DNA of 64,000 nt, taken from an uncultured Verrucomicrobiae bacterium. Lineage in GTDB: Bacteria; Verrucomicrobiota; Verrucomicrobiia; Opitutales; JABDGR01. Shown here piece by piece: positions 27,400 through 39,302 of the stretch. Position numbers and translations under genes: made by a program. Positions within the stretch are counted from its first letter, which is position 1; each line of letters starts with the position of its first letter. The notes beneath the pieces were generated by a model that was not told where the DNA came from, did not search any database, and was given only the letters and a program-made list of their open reading frames with translations. The DNA lies in assembly GCA_963765205.1 (NCBI GenBank), contig CAVXVB010000002.1:32001-96000 (forward strand), given 5' to 3'.

Positions 27400-28032
27400 A
27401 TGAATAAATTCCGATGCTTACTGCTGTTCTTTTCAGCGTCTGTGGCCGGCGCGTTGCCTTTGACGGCCCAAACTGCTCCGGCGGCTGCGCCGGCCGACAC
27501 CGTGGCGGTTCCGCCGCCACCCCCTGCCCGGACCAGCCCGCATGAGACGATTAGTTTGCACATCGGCAGTGGTGGCAATGCTGCGCCGCTGGTGACCATC
27601 ACTTACGGGCGCCCTTATTCCAAAGACCCCAAGGCCCCCACCACGATTCGCAAAATTTGGGGCACGCTGGTGCCGTGGGACAAGGTTTGGCGCATGGGTT
27701 CCGACGAGGCCACGACCTTGGTCACCCAGCAGCCGCTGGACATTGGCGGCACGACGGTGCCCGCCGGCGCGTATACCCTTTGCATGTTTCCCACCGAGCA
27801 AGGCCCGACCAAGCTGATCGTCAACAAGCAAATCGGGCAATGGGGCATTCCCTACACGGCCGCCATCCAGGCCAACGAACTGGCGCGCATTGACATGAAG
27901 AAGGCCACCCTGGACAAACAAGTGGACGAGTTCACCATTGCGCTGGTGGCGGATCCGGCAACCGGCGGCGGCATTCTCAAGGCCTTTTGGGAAACCACGC
28001 AGTATTCGGTGCCGTTCAAGTTGATCAAGTAA
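27400..28032 (+). CDS. DUF2911 family secreted protein
   Basis: RTSP, ITYGRPY, RKIWGTLVPWDKVWRMGSDEAT, VPAGAYTL and QWG motifs. Confidence 0.85.
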   Translation: MNKFRCLLLFFSASVAGALPLTAQTAPAAAPADTVAVPPPPPARTSPHETISLHIGSGGNAAPLVTITYGRPYSKDPKAPTTIRKIWGTLVPWDKVWRMGSDEATTLVTQQPLDIGGTTVPAGAYTLCMFPTEQGPTKLIVNKQIGQWGIPYTAAIQANELARIDMKKATLDKQVDEFTIALVADPATGGGILKAFWETTQYSVPFKLIK

Positions 28033-28055
28033 GACGCCCCCCCGCCATCATCGCC

Positions 28056-30572
28056 ATGCGACGAGGCCCCGCCATTGTCCGCTTTGCCGCCTTGGGCTTT
28101 GCCGTGCTGGCGGCGCTGATGTCCGGTGTTCGCGCCCAGGCGACCGCGGCCGGCGCGCCCCCGCCCGCGGGGATGGCGTTGTTGCAGGACTTGCGCAGTT
28201 TTGACGAGCTGGGCAGTGTGCTCTACATCGCCGCGCATCCCGACGATGAGAACAACCAGTTGCTGGCGTATCTCGCGCGCGGGCGCTATTACCGCACGGC
28301 CTACCTGTCGCTCAACCGCGGCGAAGGCGGGCAAAATGAACTCGGCCCCGAATTGGGCGCGGAACTCGGCGTGATCCGCACGCAGGAATTGCTCGCGGCC
28401 CGACAGGTGGACGGCGCGCGGCAGTTTTTTTCCCGCGCGTTTGATTTTGGCTACTCCAAAAGTCCCGAGGAGACCTTGCGCATCTGGGACCACCAGGCGG
28501 TTTTGTCCGACATGGTGCGCATCATCCGCGAGTTCCGGCCCGACGTGCTGATCACGCGCTTTTCGCCGCCGCCCAGCAACACGCACGGGCATCACACCGC
28601 CTCGACGATCATCGCGCAGGAGGCCTTCAAAATCGCGGGCGATCCCAAGGCGTTCCCCGAGCAACTAGCGGAGGGGCTGACGCCGTGGCAACCCAAACGC
28701 ATTCTCTATAATGGTGTCATCGCTGGCAGCAATGCCGGTGTCGTGCGCCTCAGCACTGCGGGCAACGACCCGGTGAATGGCGAGTCCTTCGCTTCGATTG
28801 CGGCGCGCGCCCGCTCGATGCACAAAACCCAGGGCTTTGGCGATACCGTGGCTGGCGGCGGCCCGGCGACTGAAGCATTCCAGCTTCTCGACGGCGAACC
28901 GGCGACGAACGACATTCTCGATGGCGTGGACCCCACCTGGGGTCGTTATCCAGGTGGCGCGGAAATCGGCCAGCTGACTGATGCCGCCATCGCCCAATTT
29001 AAACCAGACGATCTGGCGGCCAGCGTGCCCGCGTTGCTGGAGATTCGCGCGAAGCTGGCCACGCTGCCGAAGGACCCCGTGGTGGATGAAAAACGCGTGC
29101 AACTCGACCAAATCCTGCAAGGCTGCCTCGGCCTCACCGTCGAGACCACCATTCCCAACGCGGAAGTGGTGCCGGGCGAGGAATTGAAAATGCATTCAAC
29201 GGCGCTGGTGCGTTCCGCCATTCCCGTCCAATGGGTCGGCACGCGTTATACGGGCGTCAATGACCAAATCACTTCCGTGGGCGCGGTAAATTTGATCGCC
29301 GATCAGCCGGCCAGCCGGGACTCGACCCAAACTTTGTCGCCTACCACTCTCCTAACCACGCCCTATTGGCTGCGCGCACAAGGCACGGCAGGCATGCTTC
29401 GCGTGGACGATCCCGCGCTGATTGGGCGGCCGGATAACCCGCCGGTGTATCCCCTCGAGCAGGTCTTCGAAGTCGGCGGCCAAACTTTGGAAATTCCCGA
29501 TGAGCCGGTGCAGATCACGAACGACCCGGCAACCGGCGAGACGCATCGCCGGCTCGATGTGATTGCCCCGGTGGCGCTCAGTTTTGCGAACGAAGTGCAG
29601 CTTTTTGCGCCCGGCGCAACCAAGTCGGTCGAGGTTGAAATCACGGCATTTCGCGCGGTCAACCGCGGCACGGTGCAACTGGACGCGCCCGCCGGGTGGA
29701 AAGTCACTCCGGCGTTGCAGCCCTTCCAACTCGCCGCCGTGGGCGATAAAATGAAGTTCGCTTTCAACATCACGGCCCCGGCGCAACTGACTTCCGCCAA
29801 CATCTCGGCGCAGGTGGACATCAACGGCGCGCACTTTGCCAATGAACGCATTGTCCTCCACTACCCGCATATTCCTGTGCAGATGCTCCAGCCGCCCGCG
29901 CAATTCAAGGCGGTGGCGCTCGACCTCGCCATCCGGGGCCAGAAAGTCGGCTACCTGCCGGGCGCGGGCGACAGCGTGGCGGCGGCGCTCGAGGAAATGG
30001 GTTACGCGGTCACCGAACTCACCGGCGCGGATTTGACGCCGGAAAAATTGCGCGGGCTGGATGCCGTCGTGCTTGGCGTGCGCGCATTTAACGAGCGCAC
30101 GGATCTCGCTCCGAATCTGCCGGGCCTCTTTGCCTACGTCGAGCAGGGCGGCACCGTCATCGCGCAATACAACCGGCCGAGCGGATTGCAGACCACGACC
30201 CTCGGGCCGTATGCCCTTTCCATTGCGGGCCAGGCGCCGCCGTTGCGGGTGACCGATGCGAACTCGCCGGTGCAAATCCTCGTGCCCGACCATCCCGCCT
30301 TCACGACGCCGAACAAAATCACCGCGGCGGATTTCGACGGCTGGGTGCAGGAGCGCGGCGCGTATTTTCCGAGTTCGTGGGACAAGGCGCACTACGCGGC
30401 GTTGCTGGCCATGAGCGATCCCGGCGAGACGCAGCCCAGCAGCAGCCTGCTCGTAGCCAAATACGGCCGGGGATATTATGTTTACACCGCGCTCGGCTGG
30501 TTCCGGCAGCTCCCGGCGGGCGTCCCCGGCGCTTACCGGCTGTTTGCCAACCTCGTTTCGCTCGGCAAATGA
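28056..30572 (+). CDS. Large secreted PIG-L/LmbE family deacetylase/amidase with a C-terminal GATase-like domain
   Basis: Signal peptide; AAHPDDE, RGEGGQN, RTQELLAAR, DFGYSKS, HGHH and WVQERG motifs. Confidence 0.88.
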   Translation: MRRGPAIVRFAALGFAVLAALMSGVRAQATAAGAPPPAGMALLQDLRSFDELGSVLYIAAHPDDENNQLLAYLARGRYYRTAYLSLNRGEGGQNELGPELGAELGVIRTQELLAARQVDGARQFFSRAFDFGYSKSPEETLRIWDHQAVLSDMVRIIREFRPDVLITRFSPPPSNTHGHHTASTIIAQEAFKIAGDPKAFPEQLAEGLTPWQPKRILYNGVIAGSNAGVVRLSTAGNDPVNGESFASIAARARSMHKTQGFGDTVAGGGPATEAFQLLDGEPATNDILDGVDPTWGRYPGGAEIGQLTDAAIAQFKPDDLAASVPALLEIRAKLATLPKDPVVDEKRVQLDQILQGCLGLTVETTIPNAEVVPGEELKMHSTALVRSAIPVQWVGTRYTGVNDQITSVGAVNLIADQPASRDSTQTLSPTTLLTTPYWLRAQGTAGMLRVDDPALIGRPDNPPVYPLEQVFEVGGQTLEIPDEPVQITNDPATGETHRRLDVIAPVALSFANEVQLFAPGATKSVEVEITAFRAVNRGTVQLDAPAGWKVTPALQPFQLAAVGDKMKFAFNITAPAQLTSANISAQVDINGAHFANERIVLHYPHIPVQMLQPPAQFKAVALDLAIRGQKVGYLPGAGDSVAAALEEMGYAVTELTGADLTPEKLRGLDAVVLGVRAFNERTDLAPNLPGLFAYVEQGGTVIAQYNRPSGLQTTTLGPYALSIAGQAPPLRVTDANSPVQILVPDHPAFTTPNKITAADFDGWVQERGAYFPSSWDKAHYAALLAMSDPGETQPSSSLLVAKYGRGYYVYTALGWFRQLPAGVPGAYRLFANLVSLGK

Positions 30573-30739
30573 AGCCGCCCGCGCCCCAGCATGAAGCCGG
30601 TGTATCGCCGGGCACTTCGGAAAATGAAGCGACCGGCTTGCCGGGCTTCCGTACCTGGCGCGCGGTTTATTGGTTCGTGGCCGGCGTGTTTGCGGCGGTC
30701 GTCGGACTGCTCACCGTGCTTTCCCGGATGTTTTCGTGA
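30569..30739 (+). CDS. Small single-TM protein preceding the symporter
   Basis: 56 aa, PGFRTWRAVY followed by a TM; 4 nt overlaps with both neighbours. Confidence 0.75.
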   Translation: MKPPAPQHEAGVSPGTSENEATGLPGFRTWRAVYWFVAGVFAAVVGLLTVLSRMFS

Positions 30740-32451
30740 ACACCCTCGACTACGTTGTGCTGTTTGGCACCCTGCTCGGCATCGCCCTTTACGGCGTGTG
30801 GCGCACGCGCGGCCGGCGCGACTTGCGCGGCTACCTGAAGGGTGACGGCCAGGCGCGCTGGTTCATCATCGGCCTTTCCGTCATTGCCACCCAGGCCAGC
30901 GCGACGACGTTTTTGTCCATTCCCGGCCAGGGCTACCAGGACGGCCTGGGCTTTGTGCAAAATTATTTTGGCGGGCCGTTCGCGATGATCCTGATCGCCG
31001 CGGTTTTCTTGCCGATTTTCCGGCGCCTGCAGGTGTTCACCGCCTATGAATTTCTGGGCCGGCGCTTCGACAGCAAGACGCGGCTGCTCGGTGCGGCGCT
31101 GTTCCTCACCCAGCGGGGCATTGGCGCGGCGCTGACCATTTACGCGCCGGCCATCGTGCTGTCGGCCGTCTTCGGCTGGCCGCTCAATTGGACCATTATT
31201 TGCAGCGGGCTGGTCTGCGTCGTCTATACGGTCACGGGCGGCAGCGACGCCGTGCGGCTCACACAAAAATACCAGTTGGGCATCATCTGCGCGGCGATGG
31301 TGGCGGCTTTTTTTCTTTTGCTGGCGAAGATGCCCACGGGTTTTCGCGACACGCTGGCGCTGGCCGGGGGCTTCCACAAATTGGCGGCGGTGGATTTTTC
31401 GCCCAACCTGCACACGCGCTACACGTTCTGGTCAGGCACCATCGGCGGCTTTTTCCTCGCGCTGGCGTATTTCGGCGCCGACCAGTCGCAGGTGCAGCGC
31501 TATATTGGCGGCGCTTCGCTGCGCGACGGCCGCCTCGGGTTGATGTTTCACGCGGTGTGCAAAATCCCGATGCAGTTTTTTATTCTGCTGCTCGGCGTGC
31601 TGCTGTTTGTGTTCTACCAGTTTGCGCCGTCGCCGCTGCTGTATGCGCGCCAGTCGCGCGAATTCCTCGCGCAAAACGCCCCCGCGGAAAAACTGCAACC
31701 CATCGAGGCGGAATTTGCGGACGCGCGCAATGCGGAGGGGCAGCAATTGCAGGCGTGGCTGGCCGCACGCCGGACCGGGGATGCCGCGTCCGCACTGGCC
31801 GCGTTGACGGCCGCGCAGACTGCAAATGCGCAGAGTGCGGACGCCCGCCAGCGCGCCGGCGATTTACTGGAGGGCCTGCATCCGCCGACCAAGGCCAACG
31901 AGGCCGACTATGTTTTTATCACTTTCATCCTGAATTATCTGCCGCACGGGTTGATCGGCCTGCTCGTGGCCGCATTTTTTGCCGCGGCGCTTAGTTCGAA
32001 GGCCGCCGAGCTGAACGCGCTGGCTTCCTCGACCACGGTGGATTTCTACCGCCATCTCTGGCGGCGCGACGCGACGCAGGCGCACTATGTTTTCGCCTCG
32101 AAATGTTTCACGGCCTTCTGGGGGTTATTCGCCATCATCGCGGCCATCTATGCCAACCTGGTCGAGAACATCGTGCAGGCGGCGAACATCATTGGCTCGC
32201 TGTTTTACGGCCCGGTGCTGGGTTTGTTTTTAATGGCGTTTTTCATCCCGCGCGTGCGCGGCACGGCGGCGTTTTGGGGCGCGCTCGCGGCCCAGGCGCT
32301 GGTGCTGGTGCTCTACCATTACGACGTGCTCGGTATTTCCTACCTCTGGTTTAATGTGCTCGGCCCGGCGCTGTGCGTGCTGTTCAGCCTCGTCATCCAG
32401 GCCGCCATCGGTTTTGCTCCTCCGACCCCCGCCGCGCCGGCCGCCCCATGA
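30736..32451 (+). CDS. Sodium:solute symporter (SSS) family protein
   Basis: ATQASATTFLS.PG, TAYEFLGRRF, YFGADQSQVQRY and GLIGLLVAA..AAALSS motifs; many TM segments. Confidence 0.93.
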   Translation: MNTLDYVVLFGTLLGIALYGVWRTRGRRDLRGYLKGDGQARWFIIGLSVIATQASATTFLSIPGQGYQDGLGFVQNYFGGPFAMILIAAVFLPIFRRLQVFTAYEFLGRRFDSKTRLLGAALFLTQRGIGAALTIYAPAIVLSAVFGWPLNWTIICSGLVCVVYTVTGGSDAVRLTQKYQLGIICAAMVAAFFLLLAKMPTGFRDTLALAGGFHKLAAVDFSPNLHTRYTFWSGTIGGFFLALAYFGADQSQVQRYIGGASLRDGRLGLMFHAVCKIPMQFFILLLGVLLFVFYQFAPSPLLYARQSREFLAQNAPAEKLQPIEAEFADARNAEGQQLQAWLAARRTGDAASALAALTAAQTANAQSADARQRAGDLLEGLHPPTKANEADYVFITFILNYLPHGLIGLLVAAFFAAALSSKAAELNALASSTTVDFYRHLWRRDATQAHYVFASKCFTAFWGLFAIIAAIYANLVENIVQAANIIGSLFYGPVLGLFLMAFFIPRVRGTAAFWGALAAQALVLVLYHYDVLGISYLWFNVLGPALCVLFSLVIQAAIGFAPPTPAAPAAP

Positions 32452-33215
32452 CGACGCCCCGCATCTGTTTCGGCCAGCAACCCTGCGGATTTTTCCCGAA
32501 GCGGTTTCTGTTCGCCAAAATCGCCACGGCCCGCCGGCTCCAGGCCGAACTCGGCGGCGAAATTGTCTTCTTCTACCACGACAGCGACCACGACCCGCGC
32601 GAAACAACGACTATTTTGCATTACCTCCGCACCGGCGAGGCGGCGCGCCTTAACTTCGCCTTCGCCAATAAAATCCAGCGCAAGTGGTCACCCCTCTACC
32701 TCAAGCGGGTTTTGCCCGACTGGCACGCGAACACGACCCGACAATTACCGGCTTTTGTCGACCAGCGCTGGGTCGCGGCGTTCAAAAACATCGCACTGAC
32801 GAACGTCGCCGACTTTTGCCTTGAGATGTATCGCGCAATGGGCCTACTCGACCATATCCGCGTCGTGCGCTCGAGCGACCCGGCCGTGCGCCGCGCGGCG
32901 TGCGAGGTGGCGGATTATTTTGTGGACGTGCCTTTTCAGGGCGAAATCGCGCGGGCGCGGGTGGTCGCGGGCGCGCTGCAATTGCACCAGGGCGGGAGTT
33001 GCCATTTGACGCTGCCGCTGGTTGACTTGACGAAGGAGCAGGTCAGCCCCGCGCGCGACACGCGCCTGCGCTGGATGCAGTCCGTCGTGCGCTGCACGTA
33101 CTACGTGGCCGGCCTCGGCGAACAAGCCTACCTGAACCGCGCCGACGCCCCCGACGTCACCTTTATCAACCGCGACGAAATCGAACGATCCGATGAAGCC
33201 TACACCGACACCTAA
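32448..33215 (+). CDS. Minimal BshC-like protein (putative bacillithiol cysteine-adding enzyme)
   Basis: GQQ..K...A..L, VFF...SDHD..E, SP....R...Q and YVAG.GE.AY match BshC motifs in order; adjacent to bshB1 and bshA. Confidence 0.7.
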   Translation: MTTPRICFGQQPCGFFPKRFLFAKIATARRLQAELGGEIVFFYHDSDHDPRETTTILHYLRTGEAARLNFAFANKIQRKWSPLYLKRVLPDWHANTTRQLPAFVDQRWVAAFKNIALTNVADFCLEMYRAMGLLDHIRVVRSSDPAVRRAACEVADYFVDVPFQGEIARARVVAGALQLHQGGSCHLTLPLVDLTKEQVSPARDTRLRWMQSVVRCTYYVAGLGEQAYLNRADAPDVTFINRDEIERSDEAYTDT

Positions 33216-33897: not shown

Positions 33898-33922
33898 TTT
33901 TGAACTTTAATGCATTTTTCTT

Positions 33923-34603
33923 GTGTCGATCACTACCAAAATTAACGCTTTTCAAAAGCGGGGTCAAAGCGATCAGCATCATCGCTATTACTCCTGGGTA
34001 TATTGCTATCGCTATTTTCAAAGTTCTTGGAACGATGGAGGTTTCACATCCAAAGACGAAGCTGCATTGCAGCTTGGTTTTTATCTGGCGAGTTGGGGTA
34101 TGTATAGGGGATCAGGCTTCCTTTTAAAAAAAGCGTATACCATCCACATTGATACTGTTCAGTTGTTATTAGAAAAACGATGGCGCCCCCTTTGGTGCAC
34201 TGAATTTGGGGTCCGTTTTAACGATCAGGAATTGATAGACCTTGCCTTGAAGCTTTTTAAAAGCATTCATCAGTGCTATCGTTCTAATGATTCTAGTATT
34301 CCAACAAACCAACCTAGTGACACGCTAATCACAAAAATTCTTTTAGGGACGGTTGGCTGCTTGCCGGCTTGTGATCGTTGCTTTGTCGCGGCTTTTAAGC
34401 ATGAAAAAAACCCATTTTCTTCTGTGAACGAAAAATTTATTTACCGACTTATTGAATTCTGCGGGGAAAATGTAAGAGAGCTGAACGCCATCCAGCGTTC
34501 TATAGAGCAAAAGGACGGGTTTCGTTTCCCTATTATGAAGCTAGTAGATATGTATTTTTACCAAGTAGGTCGCGACTTGGATTCAAATTCGGAAAAAGAC
34601 TAA
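33923..34603 (+). CDS. AT-rich conserved-looking hypothetical protein inserted in the bsh operon
   Basis: RYYSWVYCY, LGFYLASWGMYRGS, DTLITKILLGTVGCLPACD and MKLVDMYF motifs; sharp composition shift. Confidence 0.75.
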   Translation: MSITTKINAFQKRGQSDQHHRYYSWVYCYRYFQSSWNDGGFTSKDEAALQLGFYLASWGMYRGSGFLLKKAYTIHIDTVQLLLEKRWRPLWCTEFGVRFNDQELIDLALKLFKSIHQCYRSNDSSIPTNQPSDTLITKILLGTVGCLPACDRCFVAAFKHEKNPFSSVNEKFIYRLIEFCGENVRELNAIQRSIEQKDGFRFPIMKLVDMYFYQVGRDLDSNSEKD

Positions 34604-35742
34604 TGACTACCTCTCGTCCCCTCAAAATCGGCATCACCTGCTACCCGTCGGTGGGGGGGAGCGGGGTGTTGGCGTCGGCGCTGGGTGAGGAGCTGGCGGG
34701 GCGGGGGCATGAGGTGCATTTCATCAGCTACGAGCGCCCGTTCCGCATCCCGCACGATTTGCCGCGGCTACAATTCCATCCGGTGGTCATCAACGACTAC
34801 GGGCTGTTCAAATACCCGGACTACACGCTGCCGCTGTCGGTGAAAATGGCCGAGGTCAGCCGCGACTACGGGCTGGACGTCCTGCACGTCCATTACGCGG
34901 TGCCGCACGCGACGGCCGCCATCCTCGCGCGCGACATGCTGCCGCCGGAGCGGCGCCCGCGCGTCGTCACCACCCTGCACGGCACGGACACGACGCTGCT
35001 CGGGCGCGACGCGGGTTACGGCCCGGCCATCCGTCACGCGCTCGAGCGCTCGGACGCGGTCACGACCGTCTCTGCGTTTTTGGAAAGGGAGACGCGGCGC
35101 CTGCTCGCCGTCGAGCGGCCCATCGAGGTCATCCACAATTTCTTTGCCCCGCGCGCGCCGAAACATTCGCGCGAGGAAGTGCGGCGCGAACTCGGGCTAA
35201 AAGACGAGGCGCTGATTTTGCACGCTTCGAACCTGCGGCCGCTCAAGCGCATTGACCTCCTGCTGGAAACGGCAGCGCGCCTGCGCCCACGCGAGTCGTT
35301 CAAGCTCTTGATTCTGGCCGGCGACGATTTTGGCCCATTCCAAAGCGAGGTGGCGCGGCTGGGCCTAACCGACCGGGTCATTGTCCGCGAGCGCGTCACC
35401 GAGATGGAAGACTACCTGCAAGCCGCCGACGTGGGGCTGTTCACCTCGGAGACGGAAAGTTTTTGCCTGGGCATTCTGGAAGCGATGTTTTTCGGCTGCC
35501 CCAGCGTGGCCACGGCCGTCGGCGGCATTCCCGAGGTAACGATTTCGGGCGAGACGGGCCTGCTCATCCCCTTTGGCGACGCCGACGCGTTGGCTCGCGC
35601 GGTCGAATCGCTCCTGCACAATCCCGCCCGGCGCGCCGCGTTCGGCCAAGCGGCCCAAGCCCGCGCGCGCGAAAAGTTTACCGCCGCGACGATTGTCCCA
35701 CTCTACGAGGATTTATACCGGCGGGTTTGTGCGGTGAAATAG
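34603..35742 (+). CDS. bshA: N-acetyl-alpha-D-glucosaminyl L-malate synthase (GT4)
   Basis: KIGITCYPSVGGSG, LHVHYAVPHA, VVTTLHGTD, HASNLRPLKR and ESFCL..LEAM motifs. Confidence 0.93.
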   Translation: MTTSRPLKIGITCYPSVGGSGVLASALGEELAGRGHEVHFISYERPFRIPHDLPRLQFHPVVINDYGLFKYPDYTLPLSVKMAEVSRDYGLDVLHVHYAVPHATAAILARDMLPPERRPRVVTTLHGTDTTLLGRDAGYGPAIRHALERSDAVTTVSAFLERETRRLLAVERPIEVIHNFFAPRAPKHSREEVRRELGLKDEALILHASNLRPLKRIDLLLETAARLRPRESFKLLILAGDDFGPFQSEVARLGLTDRVIVRERVTEMEDYLQAADVGLFTSETESFCLGILEAMFFGCPSVATAVGGIPEVTISGETGLLIPFGDADALARAVESLLHNPARRAAFGQAAQARAREKFTAATIVPLYEDLYRRVCAVK

Positions 35743-35893: not shown

Positions 35894-36070
35894 TTATCGG
35901 GATTCGGAGAGCGCCGCCATGGTCTTGGCGATGAAGTTCGAGCGATTCCGGTTCTCGGCATCGGCCATTTTATCAATGCGGGCGACGAGATCGGAAGGCA
36001 TCGAAAGGGAAATCTGGGTCATCCCTTTGGCGCGTGCTGCTCTACGTGTTTTTTTTGTTTTATTTGCCAT
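35894..36070 (-). CDS. Ribbon-helix-helix (CopG-like) DNA-binding protein
   Basis: TQISLSMPSDLVARIDKMADAENRNRSNFI. Confidence 0.75.
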   Translation of the reverse strand: MANKTKKTRRAARAKGMTQISLSMPSDLVARIDKMADAENRNRSNFIAKTMAALSESR

Positions 36071-36198
36071 AGTGTGTGTCATGGTAAGGTTTGCCCCGGC
36101 GAACACAAACATTAATTACTCGCTGGATTAAATGCAAAAGCCCGGTTTGGTTTCGCGACCCTGGCCCGCAAGGTTGTGGCACCAATAGGAGCGCGGAC

Positions 36199-38625
36199 TT
36201 ACCGCAAAGCACGGTGTGGACGGAAAAACGAGCTGACGAGGGCCAGCGAGAGCAGGGAACTCGACGGCATTAAAATCGCCGCGAGGAGGGGATTCATTTT
36301 GCCCGCCAGGCAAAAGCCGCCCACCACGAGGTTGTAAGTGATGGCAAAGGCAATGGCGGCGCGCGCGGCGCGGCGGCGCACCCGGCCCACCGCCAGCAGT
36401 TGCCGCACGCCATCGAGGCTTTGACCGGTGAGAAAAAAGTCCGCAACTTGGCTGAGCACCACACGGTCGGCCACCGGGGTGCCGCGCACCGCGGCGCAGC
36501 GGAACGCGAGCGCATCGTTTGCGCCGTCGCCAAGCATGAGCACGCGCTCCGGCTGGTGCGCGGTGACCCACGCGGCCTTGTCGTCGGGCATCAGGGCACC
36601 ATGGGCGTGGTCGGGCGGCAGCCCCAGTTTCGCTGCGAGTGCGAGGACGTTTTCGGTGCGGTCGCCGCTGAGGATATGGATGTCGTAACCCTCGCCCATG
36701 AGCGCGGCGACTTCGGCGGCGACACCAGGGCGGACGGATTCGGCAAAGCCAAAACCCGCGAGCAAACGACCCTGGTGGCGAAACTCGACGCGGGGCGTGG
36801 CGCGGTCAGGTTCCGTGGATTGTGGGGTAGCCGGCCCATCGCAGCCTGGAATCCAGTCCGGTCGTCCCAGCGACCAATTTTCCGAGCCAATTTCCGCCAC
36901 CAGGCCGAGGCCCGGCGTTTCACGCACGATCAGATTGGTCAAACCGGGCTCCAGGGCATCCGGGTAGCGCAGCAGCGCTTCGCGCAAGCCGCGGCTGAAG
37001 GGATGCAGGCTATTTTCGACGAGTTGGAAAAGAATGCGCCGCTCACCGGACGTGAGTGCTGTGAGGGCCTCCGTGTTTTGCAATACAGGATGTTCGAGCG
37101 TCAGCGTGCCGGTTTTGTCAAAGACGATGGTGCGCACGCGCGCGAGGCGCAACCACAGATGTGTCTCGCGCACAAACACACCCACGCCACGGAGGCGGGC
37201 CACGGCAAATTCGTGCGCCATCGGCAACGCCAGACCGAGCACGCACGGGCAGGACACCACCAGCAAGGAAAGCGTCACCCGTGCGGCCGTAATGGGTTGG
37301 TCCGCCGCCAGCCAGACGAGGCCGCCCGCCAACGCGAGCACCAGCACGGTGGCGAGGTAAACTTTGAGCGCGCGTTCGAGGCCGGTGGCACGCGGACGGC
37401 CATCGGCGCAGGCCTTCAGCAGACGCGCGAGCAACGAATCATCCCAGCGCTCCTGGGCTTGGAAGGTCAAATCCGCCTGCCCGGCGTTGAGGGCGCCGGC
37501 GGGCGCGAGGCGGCCGGCGGGCAGGCGGCGCGGTTCGGGTTCGCCCGTTATCCACGCCAGGCCGAGGGTTGCTTCGTGGTTAAGCACGCGCGCCGCCACG
37601 GGCAAAAGCTGGCCGGGGCCGATCAAAAAACAGTCCCCGGCAACCAGCGACTCCAGCGCGATAGAGCCGCCCGCCACCCCGGCCCGGCGCACTGAGGAAG
37701 GCACGGGATTGAGGCGGAGCAATTGATGGCGATTGCGCTCGATGGCGGTTTCCTGGGTCCAGCGGCCCACGAGCATAAAAAACATAAACAGGGAAACGAA
37801 ATCGAAATAGGCCAGTTCGGGATGCCCAAACATCCAGCCGGCGAGCGAGCCAAGATACGCGCCCGTCACGCCGAGTGCAATGGGTAGGTCGAGGTCGAGC
37901 ACGCCGATGCGCAAGCCGCGCCACGCCCGCGCCATGAAATAACCACCACCGACGATGAGGCTCAACGTCGCACACACCGCGGTGATGGCGGCAAACAGGC
38001 CGGTCCATTCACTTTCGCGCGCGAGGCCGATATAGCCCGGCAGCGTGAAGAGCATGTTGTTGAGGGCGAGGGCCGCACAAATGCCGAGCCGGCCGGCCAG
38101 CGCGCGGCTGCCAGGTGGCATGGGGCCGTCGAGGGGGCCGAGTTGGTAGCCGAAGCGGTGGAGTTCGCCCGCGATGGCCGACAAGTCCGCCACCTGCGAC
38201 TCCCAGGTCAGGCGCGCGCGACCGCGCGGGGCGTCCACCTCGATGCGCACGGCGCCGGGCTGGCGGGAAAAAACTTGATCCACCAGCCAGACACAAGCTA
38301 CGCAGGCGAGGCCCTGAATTTGGACGGACAATTCGGCCACCCCCCTGACCGCGCGCGTTTCCGCGTCGGCCTGGCGCGAACGCAACCAGGAGAAATCCAC
38401 CGGTTGCAAAATCGAAGGCGCCACCGGCGGAATTATCGTGGACTTTAAATCATAATAGCGACCCCAGCCGGCCTGGTAGATAAGGCCATGGACATATTCA
38501 CAGCCGGCGCAGCAAAACTCGGTCTGGCCAGCGGCCAGCGGCGTGCCGCAATGCTGGCAACCGCGGGTTGCTTCCGCGTGAGCTGCCGTCAGTATGGGGC
38601 GCGGGGGATCAAGGGCTAATGACAT
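36199..38625 (-). CDS. ccoI: CcoI/FixI heavy-metal P1B-type ATPase
   Basis: CQHCG..FCCAGC, CVAC, TGE, SCPC, DKTGTLT, HP and GDGAND motifs; cco cluster context. Confidence 0.92.
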   Translation of the reverse strand: MSLALDPPRPILTAAHAEATRGCQHCGTPLAAGQTEFCCAGCEYVHGLIYQAGWGRYYDLKSTIIPPVAPSILQPVDFSWLRSRQADAETRAVRGVAELSVQIQGLACVACVWLVDQVFSRQPGAVRIEVDAPRGRARLTWESQVADLSAIAGELHRFGYQLGPLDGPMPPGSRALAGRLGICAALALNNMLFTLPGYIGLARESEWTGLFAAITAVCATLSLIVGGGYFMARAWRGLRIGVLDLDLPIALGVTGAYLGSLAGWMFGHPELAYFDFVSLFMFFMLVGRWTQETAIERNRHQLLRLNPVPSSVRRAGVAGGSIALESLVAGDCFLIGPGQLLPVAARVLNHEATLGLAWITGEPEPRRLPAGRLAPAGALNAGQADLTFQAQERWDDSLLARLLKACADGRPRATGLERALKVYLATVLVLALAGGLVWLAADQPITAARVTLSLLVVSCPCVLGLALPMAHEFAVARLRGVGVFVRETHLWLRLARVRTIVFDKTGTLTLEHPVLQNTEALTALTSGERRILFQLVENSLHPFSRGLREALLRYPDALEPGLTNLIVRETPGLGLVAEIGSENWSLGRPDWIPGCDGPATPQSTEPDRATPRVEFRHQGRLLAGFGFAESVRPGVAAEVAALMGEGYDIHILSGDRTENVLALAAKLGLPPDHAHGALMPDDKAAWVTAHQPERVLMLGDGANDALAFRCAAVRGTPVADRVVLSQVADFFLTGQSLDGVRQLLAVGRVRRRAARAAIAFAITYNLVVGGFCLAGKMNPLLAAILMPSSSLLSLALVSSFFRPHRALR

Positions 38626-39302
38626 ATTGCCTCCAGCCAATGGGTGCCACCGGATGAGGCGCGCCAGGCGACGATGCCTGCGGCGCCGAGCGCAACCGCG
38701 CTTTGCGTCCAGCGCACGCGTGCGGGGGAAAAGTGGATTTGCCAGCGGGCGAGGCCGGCTTGCACGAGCCAGAGCAGCGGCAAAGTGCCCAGGCCAAAGG
38801 CCAAAGCGAGCGTCGCGCCGTGCACTGCGGAGCCGGCAAACAAGCACACGGTAAATAAAACATACAACGGCCCGCACGGCAGCAGGGGCGTGGCCGCGCC
38901 CAGCAGTGCGCCCAGCAACGGTGCGGGTGTATTCCGCGCCAAGCACATGATCCGACCATGCCAGCGGGAAAGCCACAGCGGCTTCGGCAGCCACCGATCC
39001 AACCGCAGGGCGAAGATGACCAGAAACAAGACGAGCACCCACGGCAACGCCCTGGCCAGCGGCCAGGTAAACGCTTTTTCGGTGACGGTACCGATACCGC
39101 CCGCCAGCGCGCCAATCACCGCATAGGCCGTTAACCGCACACTCTGGTAAACCGACATGGCTGGCAGGGTCGCAGCCGCCGGGCGGCCGGCGGTGAGCAC
39201 TGCGCATCCGAGCGGCCCGCACATTAGCGCGCAATGCGGACTGGTCGCCAGCCCGATTAAAAAGGCCGCCGCAACGCCATCAATGGATGCTGGGGAAAAC
39301 AT
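38616..39302 (-). CDS. DsbD_2 / sulfite exporter TauE-like cbb3 biogenesis membrane protein
   Basis: SPHCALMCGPL, LLPCG.LY and AFGLGTLP motifs. Confidence 0.88.
   Translation of the reverse strand: MFSPASIDGVAAAFLIGLATSPHCALMCGPLGCAVLTAGRPAAATLPAMSVYQSVRLTAYAVIGALAGGIGTVTEKAFTWPLARALPWVLVLFLVIFALRLDRWLPKPLWLSRWHGRIMCLARNTPAPLLGALLGAATPLLPCGPLYVLFTVCLFAGSAVHGATLALAFGLGTLPLLWLVQAGLARWQIHFSPARVRWTQSAVALGAAGIVAWRASSGGTHWLEAICH

What the first reader, a model, noticed from the sequence alone, without database searches (positions are those of the whole stretch)
32448..33215. Half-size BshC-like protein: a possible minimal cysteine-adding enzyme for bacillithiol
Seen: a 255 aa ORF directly before bshB1 and bshA with CFGQQ...AKIATARRL...IVFFYHDSDHDPRE...VSPARDTRLRWMQ...YYVAGLGEQAYL. 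Known: BshC is roughly twice this length and has motifs of the form TGQQ/TGHQ...K...A..L...VFW...EDHD..E...SPNV..R...Q...Y.GGPGE..Y, plus an N-terminal region and a long coiled coil. Its ligation mechanism is unresolved. Inference: this is the bare Rossmann-type catalytic core, likely to be annotated as hypothetical. It could define the minimal enzyme or make a variant thiol.
Basis: partly seen in the sequence, partly recalled or inferred. Interest (0 to 1): 0.8.

Follow-up and report, generated by a model that had tools for sequence, protein, structure and literature searches.

The report
Half-size BshC-like enzyme in Opitutales
A 255-residue "hypothetical" protein in a soil/freshwater Verrucomicrobium is a stripped-down relative of the catalytic core of BshC, the still poorly understood last enzyme of bacillithiol synthesis, and it always travels with the other bacillithiol genes in genomes that lack a normal BshC.

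Summary
The ORF is real: 32448-33215, + strand, 255 aa, with the quoted motifs. No Pfam or NCBIfam model detects it. Three tests that do not depend on each other link it to the catalytic domain of BshC.

- **Structure:** the AlphaFold model has pLDDT 94. Its best match is B. subtilis BshC (4WBD), Z 20.2, rmsd 2.5 Å over 237 of 255 residues. The next match is class I LysRS at Z 14.5, and all others are at or below 8.7.
- **Profile comparison:** hhalign against a BshC alignment gives 93% probability, E 2.9e-7, over 217 columns. Thirty column shuffles gave a best E of 0.03.
- **Conserved residues:** 16 of BshC's 34 most conserved core columns are identical, including GQQ, K, DHD..E, S..R and G.E..Y.

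The protein lacks BshC's N-terminal ~73 residues, a ~38-residue internal segment and the C-terminal ~180-residue part that holds the coiled-coil dimerisation domain.

In 151 Opitutales genomes it occurs in exactly the 20 that have BshA, and none of the 151 has a canonical BshC. It sits in a conserved module: exported PIG-L protein, SSF symporter, X, BshB1-like, BshA.

The most likely role is the amino-acid-adding step on GlcN-malate. No activity has been shown. These genomes lack the known bacillithiol reductase and bacilliredoxins, so a variant product remains possible. I class it as a new variant of a known kind.

The parts
32448..33215 (+). X: 255-aa BshC-like Rossmann-type core (the finding). 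No Pfam or NCBIfam hit.
   Evidence: no family; pLDDT 94.1; 4WBD top hit, Z 20.2; profile match and conserved residues
33193..33897 (+). BshB1-like PIG-L deacetylase; its start overlaps the end of X by 23 nt
   Evidence: PF02585 83 bits; TIGR04001 132.9 bits (best family, but below its cut-off of 182.5)
34603..35742 (+). BshA (GlcNAc-malate synthase, GT4)
   Evidence: TIGR03999 395.8 bits, cut-off 273.7
30670..32451 (+). Sodium:solute symporter family transporter, substrate unknown. Its stop overlaps the ATG of X. It has a ~85-residue non-membrane insertion (about 321-405).
   Evidence: (PF00474, TIGR00813 212 bits); upstream of X in 72 of 73 and 46 of 47 loci with enough flank
27987..30572 (+). 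861-aa protein with an N-terminal PIG-L domain and a signal-peptide-like N-terminus (my reading of the sequence). It has the same phyletic pattern as X and BshA.
   Evidence: PF02585 55 bits; best NCBIfam hit Mca, 45.5 bits; 10 of 201 genomes, the same ten as X; 60 of 64 and 28 of 29 loci
33923..34603 (+). 226-aa ORF in a 40% G+C stretch, inserted between bshB1-like and bshA. It is not part of the module and is specific to this genome.
   Evidence: G+C 0.404 against 0.62-0.68; no family; no hit in 9+80+80 loci

Best explanation
X is a very diverged, compact homologue of the Rossmann-like catalytic domain of BshC. It stands in for BshC in Opitutales. BshA makes GlcNAc-malate and the BshB1-like deacetylase makes GlcN-malate. 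X then adds the amino acid, most likely cysteine, to the free amine, giving bacillithiol or a close derivative. X keeps the BshC-specific active-site residues: GQQ at the position where class I synthetases carry HIGH, a lysine on the first helix, DHD..E after strand 2, S..R, and G.E..Y after the last strand. It has no N-terminal region and no C-terminal part with the coiled-coil dimerisation domain. Shown here: homology, fold, residue conservation, gene linkage, co-occurrence and absence of canonical BshC. Inferred: the reaction, the substrate and the product.
For: Fold:
- AF2 model pLDDT 94.1, pTM 0.91.
- Foldseek top hit 4WBD BshC, E 6.7e-10.
- VIA-align Z 20.2, rmsd 2.5 Å, 237 of 255 residues; next is class I LysRS at 14.5-14.6; all others are at or below 9.2. 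The same ranking came from a Foldseek-independent scan of 48,161 chains.

Sequence:
- hhalign of 19 X-family sequences against 35 BshC sequences gave probability 93.2, E 2.9e-7, 217 columns (X 4-230 to BshC 74-335).
- Controls: reversed columns E 0.33; best of 30 column shuffles E 0.03.
- 16 of 34 BshC columns conserved at >=90% in the aligned span are identical in X, and these positions are near-invariant in X as well.

Context:
- In the only canonical-BshC genome of the phylum sample (G070) the order is bshC-bshB-bshA. X occupies the bshC position.
- With >=2,500 bp downstream, BshA follows X in 64 of 65 genome loci and 35 of 36 metagenome loci.

Phyletic pattern:
- Phylum sample of 201 genomes: X in 10, BshA in 11, BshC in 1. 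The ten X genomes are the ten BshA genomes without BshC.
- Order sample of 151 genomes: X in 20, BshA in the same 20, BshC in 0. In two of the 20 the genes lie on different contigs.

Own genome (92% complete):
- No TIGR03998, PF10079 or PF24850 match.
- One CysRS only, so no MshC-type ligase.
- No GshB.
- Three single-contig X genomes (G177, G180, G189) also lack BshC.

A language-model search placed PF10079 clusters right after X's own clusters (a lead only).
Against: - No enzymatic or metabolite data exist, and canonical BshC itself has never been reconstituted in vitro (PMC5790435 and PMC4360819, passages read).
- HMMER-level models do not connect X to BshC. TIGR03998 and PF10079 give no hit. 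An X profile over 1.84 billion representatives listed no ~500-aa BshC among its best 150 of 261 hits.
- BshC-invariant residues R354, T358, Q473, E474, R475 and H505 lie in parts that X does not have. T91, R271, P312 and Q315 are not matched in the aligned columns.
- The own genome has no Bdr/YpdA above cut-off (best 41.8 bits), and no BrxA/B or YtxJ. X genomes G177 and G189 have no YpdA hit at E<=1e-20 and G180 only a 137-bit hit below cut-off, while the canonical-BshC genome G070 has a real YpdA at 428 bits. So the usual bacillithiol redox cycle is not evident.
- The window's own copy has Y at position 218, where 278 of 280 members have H.
- AlphaFold has seen 4WBD in training, so the model is not fully independent of it.
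Confidence: 0.7

Rival explanations
1. X is a BshC-type ligase, but the pathway product is not plain bacillithiol. X adds another amino acid or acyl group, or the product is a modified or exported derivative used for something other than a cytoplasmic redox buffer.
For: - No Bdr/YpdA, BrxA/B or YtxJ in the own genome. No YpdA hit in G177 and G189, and only a sub-cut-off one in G180, whereas the BshC genome G070 has YpdA.
- X has its own near-invariant Cys/His set (C13, H44, C124, C216, H218) that BshC lacks.
- The module always includes an apparently exported PIG-L protein and a symporter.
- A distant member sits next to a GNAT acetyltransferase.
Against: - BshA scores well above the equivalog cut-off for GlcNAc-malate synthase.
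- All polar BshC-invariant residues of the core are kept.
- No GshB was found, so the cell needs some low-molecular-weight thiol.
Confidence: 0.17
2. X shares ancestry and fold with BshC but is not the ligase. It has a different role in the module, for example nucleotide binding, regulation, or a reaction on an imported amino sugar. The last step is done by an unrecognised enzyme or does not occur.
For: - About half of BshC is missing, including six invariant residues of its C-terminal part.
- X is linked to the symporter and the big PIG-L protein as tightly as to BshA.
- A fold match alone does not show function (notes).
Against: - The retained residues are exactly the BshC-specific motif residues and are near-invariant in 280 members.
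- X and canonical BshC are mutually exclusive, and X sits in the bshC slot of the operon.
- No other candidate ligase was found: a single CysRS and no BshC.
- A distant member without symporter or BshA nearby is still beside a BshB1-like gene.
Confidence: 0.1
3. The resemblance to BshC is convergence within the broad class I synthetase / nucleotidyltransferase (HUP) fold, and the shared motifs are chance.
For: - Identity is only 14-16%.
- HMMER finds no link.
Against: - Z 20.2 to BshC against at most 9.2 for all HUP proteins other than LysRS-I.
- hhalign score 59.2 against at most 23.6 in 31 controls.
- Motif residues match in the same order and spacing.
- The genomic context is independent of any sequence argument.
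Confidence: 0.03

Closest known systems
BshC (YllA/UPF0747; TIGR03998; Pfam PF10079 Rossmann-like_BshC + PF24850 CC_BshC; structure 4WBD)
   Same: - Rossmann-type core with its connecting subdomains: Z 20.2 over 237 residues.
- Shared motifs: GQQ, K, DHD..E, F, S..R and G.E..Y.
- Same operon slot before bshB-bshA.
- Co-occurrence with BshA.
   Different: - 255 aa against about 510-570 aa.
- No N-terminal ~73 residues, no ~38-residue internal helical segment, and no C-terminal ~180 residues (coiled-coil dimerisation domain with its invariant R, T, QER and H).
- Not detected by either Pfam model or by TIGR03998.
- Has extra invariant Cys/His residues.
- The accompanying genomes lack Bdr and Brx.
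Class I lysyl-tRNA synthetase catalytic domain (1IRX)
   Same: Second-best structural match: Z 14.5-14.6, 207-208 residues aligned. Same HUP Rossmann topology.
   Different: 11% identity. I see no HIGH or KMSKS motif in X (my reading of the sequence) and no anticodon-binding domain. The genomic context is thiol biosynthesis, not translation.
MshC (mycothiol cysteine ligase, a CysRS paralogue; 3C8Z, 8HFN)
   Same: Analogous step in a parallel pathway (Cys added to a GlcN-aglycone). Class I synthetase fold. Weak structural match, Z 7.3-7.6.
   Different: A different branch of the fold. The genome has only one CysRS-like gene. X is not matched by the cysS model.

Membership tests
BshC (TIGR03998 / PF10079 + PF24850) | Scores above the curated cut-off of the family HMMs | tested here: not met
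   No hit at E<=0.1 in Pfam or NCBIfam. No TIGR03998 or PF10079 match at E<=10 anywhere in the genome.
BshC (TIGR03998 / PF10079 + PF24850) | Rossmann-like catalytic core with the fold of 4WBD | tested here: met
   Z 20.2, rmsd 2.5 Å, 237 of 255 residues; top of 48,161 chains. Foldseek E 6.7e-10. This is a predicted model, not an experimental one.
BshC (TIGR03998 / PF10079 + PF24850) | Family-invariant core residues (GQQ, K, DHD..E, S..R, G.E..Y) | tested here: met
   16 of 34 columns conserved at >=90% are identical, including all those listed. 18 are not, among them T91, R271, P312 and Q315.
BshC (TIGR03998 / PF10079 + PF24850) | C-terminal coiled-coil dimerisation domain (PF24850) | tested here: not met
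   X ends about 25 residues after the G.E..Y motif. No PF24850 match in the genome at E<=1.
BshC (TIGR03998 / PF10079 + PF24850) | N-terminal ~70-80-residue region before the GQQ strand | tested here: not met
   GQQ is at residues 9-11 of X, against 79-81 in a canonical BshC.
BshC (TIGR03998 / PF10079 + PF24850) | Co-occurrence and linkage with bshA/bshB (how BshC was originally found; PMC5790435, passage read) | tested here: met
   X and BshA in the same 20 of 151 and 10 of 201 genomes. BshA downstream in 64 of 65 and 35 of 36 loci.
BshC (TIGR03998 / PF10079 + PF24850) | Required for adding cysteine to GlcN-malate in vivo | not testable with these tools
   Needs genetics and thiol analysis.
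Class I aminoacyl-tRNA synthetase catalytic domain | HIGH and KMSKS signature motifs | tested here: not met
   Read directly from the sequence: GQQPCG follows strand 1 where HIGH would lie, and there is no KMSKS-like loop. The motif positions are from my own knowledge.
MshC / CysRS | Match to the cysS/MshC models; a second CysRS-like gene in the genome | tested here: not met
   TIGR00435 finds one gene above cut-off (360 bits) on the window's contig, outside the window. The other three hits score at or below 25.5 bits.

The most novel reading that the evidence does not exclude
Opitutales run a self-contained, previously unseen bacillithiol-type system built around a minimal ligase. X performs the cysteine-adding step as a bare ~250-residue core, without the coiled coil. 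It may recognise the cysteine thiolate through its own invariant Cys/His cluster (C13, H44, C124, C216, H218), in the way CysRS and MshC use zinc. The always co-occurring exported PIG-L amidase and the translationally coupled symporter would recover GlcN-malate from exported conjugates for re-ligation. If so, X would be the simplest handle on the unresolved BshC reaction, and it would give Verrucomicrobiota their first predicted low-molecular-weight thiol.
Probability: 0.15. Interest if true: 0.85.

Novelty: new variant of a known kind. Interest (0 to 1): 0.72.

Why it matters
- **The BshC reaction is unsolved.** The activated cysteine donor is unknown and the reaction has never been reconstituted (PMC5790435 and PMC4360819, passages read). 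A natural version cut down to the conserved core shows which parts are dispensable. It is also a smaller target for biochemistry and crystallography.
- **It fills a gap in thiol surveys.** Hiras et al. 2018 state that Verrucomicrobia have no documented or predicted low-molecular-weight thiol (PMC6282198, passage read). Both that survey and the 2025 NmbA survey required BshC hits of similar length to the query, so they could not have seen X (PMC6282198 and PMC12719100, methods passages). The two supplementary files of the 2025 paper held as text contain no Opitut* or Verrucomicrob* entry.
- **The family is large and unannotated.** More than 6,776 database proteins and 573 matching stretches in the scanned collection of one genome per species, all named hypothetical or left unnamed.

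Tried and rejected
- **Direct sequence searches against solved structures:** phmmer of X and an HMM of the family found no BshC, only chance-level hits.
- **X profile over 1.84 billion representatives:** 261 hits. The best 150 are X-family proteins, fragments or frameshifted read-throughs. None is a full-length BshC, and the other 111 were not listed.
- **Natural short forms bridging X and BshC:** 194 short PF10079 proteins were found. The 120 listed are 71-280 aa, have 1-4 members each, and several are labelled 'partial'. I read them as fragments, not a family.
- **Homodimer prediction of X:** no verdict.
- **RNA-seq evidence:** no RNA holder listed.
- **Symporter insertion as a docking site for X:** its length is conserved, but its sequence is less conserved than the membrane core (0.44-0.53 against 0.75-0.86). 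I make no claim.
- **Earlier scan notes:** the two near this place concern a mobile island at 45.5-52.4 kb, not this locus. No look-alike was found by sequence.
- **VanDuinen et al. 2015 structure paper:** not held. Its content is cited second-hand from PMC4360819.
- **Possible Cys/His metal site:** it could not be checked, because no model coordinates are available to scripts.
- **Literature searches for prior description:** searches found no paper that links bacillithiol genes to Opitutales or describes a short BshC. For some searches I saw the listings. I read passages of PMC6282198, PMC5790435, PMC12719100, PMC4360819, PMC10033563 and PMC8261052.
Full report
**1. The observation**

- ATG 32448 is the true start. 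All 38 aligned homologues begin a few residues before P-x-I-C-F-G-Q-Q.
- The ATG overlaps the stop codon of the upstream gene (ATGA). The 3' end overlaps the next gene by 23 nt. The genes are therefore packed like an operon.
- Downstream lie a BshB1-like PIG-L deacetylase (TIGR04001 132.9 bits: the best family, but below its 182.5 cut-off) and a clear BshA (TIGR03999 395.8 bits, cut-off 273.7).
Between bshB1-like and bshA there is a 226-aa ORF in a stretch of 40% G+C, against 62-68% in the neighbours. It has no family hit and no counterpart in any of 9+80+80 syntenic loci. It is a foreign insertion specific to this genome.

**2. X is a real, conserved, unannotated family**

- X matches nothing in Pfam-A or NCBIfam at E<=0.1.
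- More than 6,776 database proteins match it at E<=1e-3 (8,000 candidates scored). The best 120 are 253-269 aa, and those that carry a name are all 'hypothetical protein'. The named records are Opitutaceae and Oleiharenicola.
- At 50% clustering there are 261 representatives. A few full-length members are only 31-41% identical to X.
- In 280 distinct members, 69 columns are >=97% conserved.

**3. Homology to BshC**

*Structure*
- An AF2 model from 38 sequences has mean pLDDT 94.1 and pTM 0.91.
- Foldseek against the PDB puts B. subtilis BshC (4WBD) first (E 6.7e-10, TM 0.64 on the query), followed by class I synthetases.
- VIA-align gives Z 20.2, rmsd 2.5 Å, 237 of 255 residues for 4WBD. Class I LysRS scores 14.6 and everything else is at or below 9.2.
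- A Foldseek-independent scan of 48,161 representative chains gives the same order: 20.2, 14.5, then at most 8.7.

*Profile comparison*
- I built a BshC alignment of 35 sequences, 25-67% identical to its first sequence, all carrying PF10079 and all but one also PF24850.
- hhalign of the close X set against it gave probability 84.9, E 6.5e-6.
- After adding the distant X members, it gave probability 93.2, E 2.9e-7 over 217 columns, X 4-230 to BshC 74-335.
- Controls: reversed BshC columns gave E 0.33. Thirty column shuffles gave a best E of 0.03 and a best score of 23.6, against 59.2 for the real alignment.

*Conserved residues*
- Of the 34 BshC columns conserved at >=90% inside the aligned span, 16 have the same residue in X: G79 Q80 Q81, K94, F117, D123 H124 D125, E128, G206, F263, S305, R311, G327, E330 and Y333. 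These positions are near-invariant in X as well.
- Three more are conservative changes (Y/F, W/F, F/Y).
- Not matched: T91, E122, R271, P312, Q315 (X has an invariant Q one position later) and several G/P residues.

*What X lacks*
- BshC's first ~73 residues, a ~38-residue internal segment, and the last ~180 residues.
- The last part holds the coiled-coil domain and the invariant R354, T358, Q473, E474, R475 and H505.

*Caveats*
- HMMER-level methods do not bridge the families.
- AlphaFold was trained on 4WBD.

**4. Genomic evidence**

*Phylum sample (201 Verrucomicrobiota genomes)*
- TIGR03998 BshC is found in 1, X in 10 and BshA in 11.
- The ten X genomes are exactly the ten BshA genomes without BshC.
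- The eleventh, G070, has bshC-bshB-bshA in a row, so X sits where bshC sits.

*Order sample (151 genomes)*
- X is in 20, spread over at least 7 families. BshA is in the same 20. BshC is in none.
- In two of the 20 the genes lie on different contigs, so the association is more than adjacency.
- These genomes are related to each other, so the counts are descriptive and not a statistical test.

*Own genome and complete relatives*
- The own genome is 92% complete. It has no match to TIGR03998, PF10079 or PF24850.
- Three single-contig X genomes (G177, G180, G189) also lack BshC.
- The own genome has a single CysRS, so no MshC-type ligase, and no GshB.

*Linkage in scanned collections*
- Among 80 genome loci, 65 have >=2,500 bp downstream. 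Of these, 64 have BshA, 64 have BshB and 63 have both.
- Among 80 metagenome loci, 36 have >=2,500 bp downstream. Of these, 35 have BshA and 20 have BshB on the same strand; the 36th, L110, lacks BshA and has a BshB1-like gene on the opposite strand.

**5. A wider module**

- Upstream of X there is nearly always an SSF symporter: 72 of 73 and 46 of 47 loci with enough flank.
- Before that lies an 861-aa protein with a PIG-L domain: 60 of 64 and 28 of 29 loci.
- The big PIG-L protein occurs in exactly the same 10 of 201 genomes as X, at E<=1e-40. In G180 it lies elsewhere on the chromosome.
- Its N-terminus looks like a signal peptide (my reading). Its best NCBIfam hit is the mycothiol-conjugate amidase Mca.
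- Flanking genes beyond this five-gene block are not conserved.
- In one clade X is followed directly by BshA: 15 of the 36 metagenome loci.
- The genome G201, a single ~4.5-Mb chromosome record, has this arrangement. Its only TIGR04001 hit is the big PIG-L protein.
- A distant X-like gene (44% identity, locus L110) has no symporter or BshA nearby. It still sits next to a BshB1-like gene (155 bits) and a GNAT, between gatA and gatB.

**6. What speaks for caution**

- The own genome has no Bdr/YpdA above cut-off (best 41.8 bits), and no BrxA/B or YtxJ.
- X genomes G177 and G189 have no YpdA hit at E<=1e-20. G180 has only a 137-bit hit. The canonical-BshC genome G070 has a genuine YpdA at 428 bits.
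- So the product may be handled differently from bacillithiol in Firmicutes, or it may be a variant.
- X also carries near-invariant Cys/His residues that BshC lacks: C13 275/280, H44 279, C124 280, C216 279, H218 278. I could not test whether they form a metal site.
- The window's own copy has Y218 (codon TAC) at one of these positions.

**7. Mechanism proposed**

- BshA makes GlcNAc-malate, the BshB1-like enzyme makes GlcN-malate, and X makes an aminoacyl (most likely cysteinyl) GlcN-malate.
- X would use the same pocket as BshC. The GQQ loop follows strand 1, where class I synthetases carry HIGH. The acidic DHD..E follows strand 2, and G.E..Y follows the last strand.
[quoted passage not shown] The same review says its active sites are open to an unknown partner or cofactor (PMC4360819, passage read). 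The original paper is not held.
- Which activated cysteine donor is used is unknown for BshC, and therefore for X.

**8. Comparison and novelty**

- X works like BshC and descends from the same domain. It fails three membership features: the HMM cut-offs, the N-terminal region and the coiled coil.
- I therefore file it as a new variant, not as a member of the family as currently modelled.
- Searches of the paper library found nothing that describes it.
- The 2025 survey of 3,842 species required similar length and >80% coverage (PMC12719100). The two supplement files of that paper held as text have no Opitutales or Verrucomicrobiota entry.

**9. Verdict**

- Observation confirmed. Interpretation supported.
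- Homology to the BshC core: about 0.95. Role as the amino-acid-adding enzyme of a bacillithiol-type pathway: about 0.7.
- Interest 0.72.

Noticed in passing
window 33898-34602 (ORF 33923-34603, +): A 40% G+C stretch with a 226-aa ORF inserted between bshB1-like and bshA. Its stop overlaps the bshA ATG. It has no Pfam, NCBIfam or PADLOC hit, is absent from all 169 syntenic loci, and has no flanking direct repeats.
   Followed up: partly
window 27987-30572 and 30670-32451: An 861-aa PIG-L protein with a signal-peptide-like N-terminus, and an SSF symporter with an ~85-residue insertion. Both travel with X and BshA, and the PIG-L protein is present in the same 10 of 201 genomes. This could be a recycling or uptake arm of the pathway.
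   Followed up: partly
window 33099-33101 (X residue 218): This genome's copy has Tyr (TAC) where 278 of 280 family members have His. It could be a real variant, a loss of function, or an assembly consensus error.
   Followed up: no
X residues 7, 13, 44, 124, 216, 218: X has family-specific near-invariant Cys/His residues that BshC lacks. They could form a metal site, as in CysRS and MshC. No coordinates were available to test proximity.
   Followed up: no
L061/G201; metagenome loci such as L116-L118, L136, L164: A clade in which X is followed directly by BshA, with no small BshB. In the single-chromosome genome G201 the only BshB1-model hit (27 bits) is the big PIG-L protein of the cluster.
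   Followed up: partly
L110:5801-6595: A distant X-like gene (44% identity) lies after gatA and a GNAT acetyltransferase. It is convergent with a BshB1-like gene (155 bits), which is followed by gatB. The GNAT hints at an N-acetylated, mycothiol-like variant.
   Followed up: partly
L001:723-1481 (genome G070): A 252-aa ORF that I read from its sequence as a SAM-methyltransferase lies directly upstream of the canonical bshC-bshB-bshA. It may be an NmbA-type N-methyl-bacillithiol synthase.
   Followed up: no
loci L059, L060, L091, L098, L102, L103, L105: These records are labelled Limnocylindria, Phycisphaerales, Bifidobacteriaceae, Phycisphaerae, Binatia, Tepidisphaeraceae and Abditibacteriaceae. 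They carry the full Opitutales-type module at 66-69% identity, so they are probably mis-binned or mislabelled contigs.
   Followed up: no
window 35894-36112 (-): A 72-aa ORF just after bshA that I read as ribbon-helix-helix (CopG-like). It lies next to a 1,011-aa ORF (36199-39234, -) that I read as a P-type ATPase. The ATPase ORF gave no hit in the 9 sister loci; the 72-aa ORF was too short to be included in that search.
   Followed up: no
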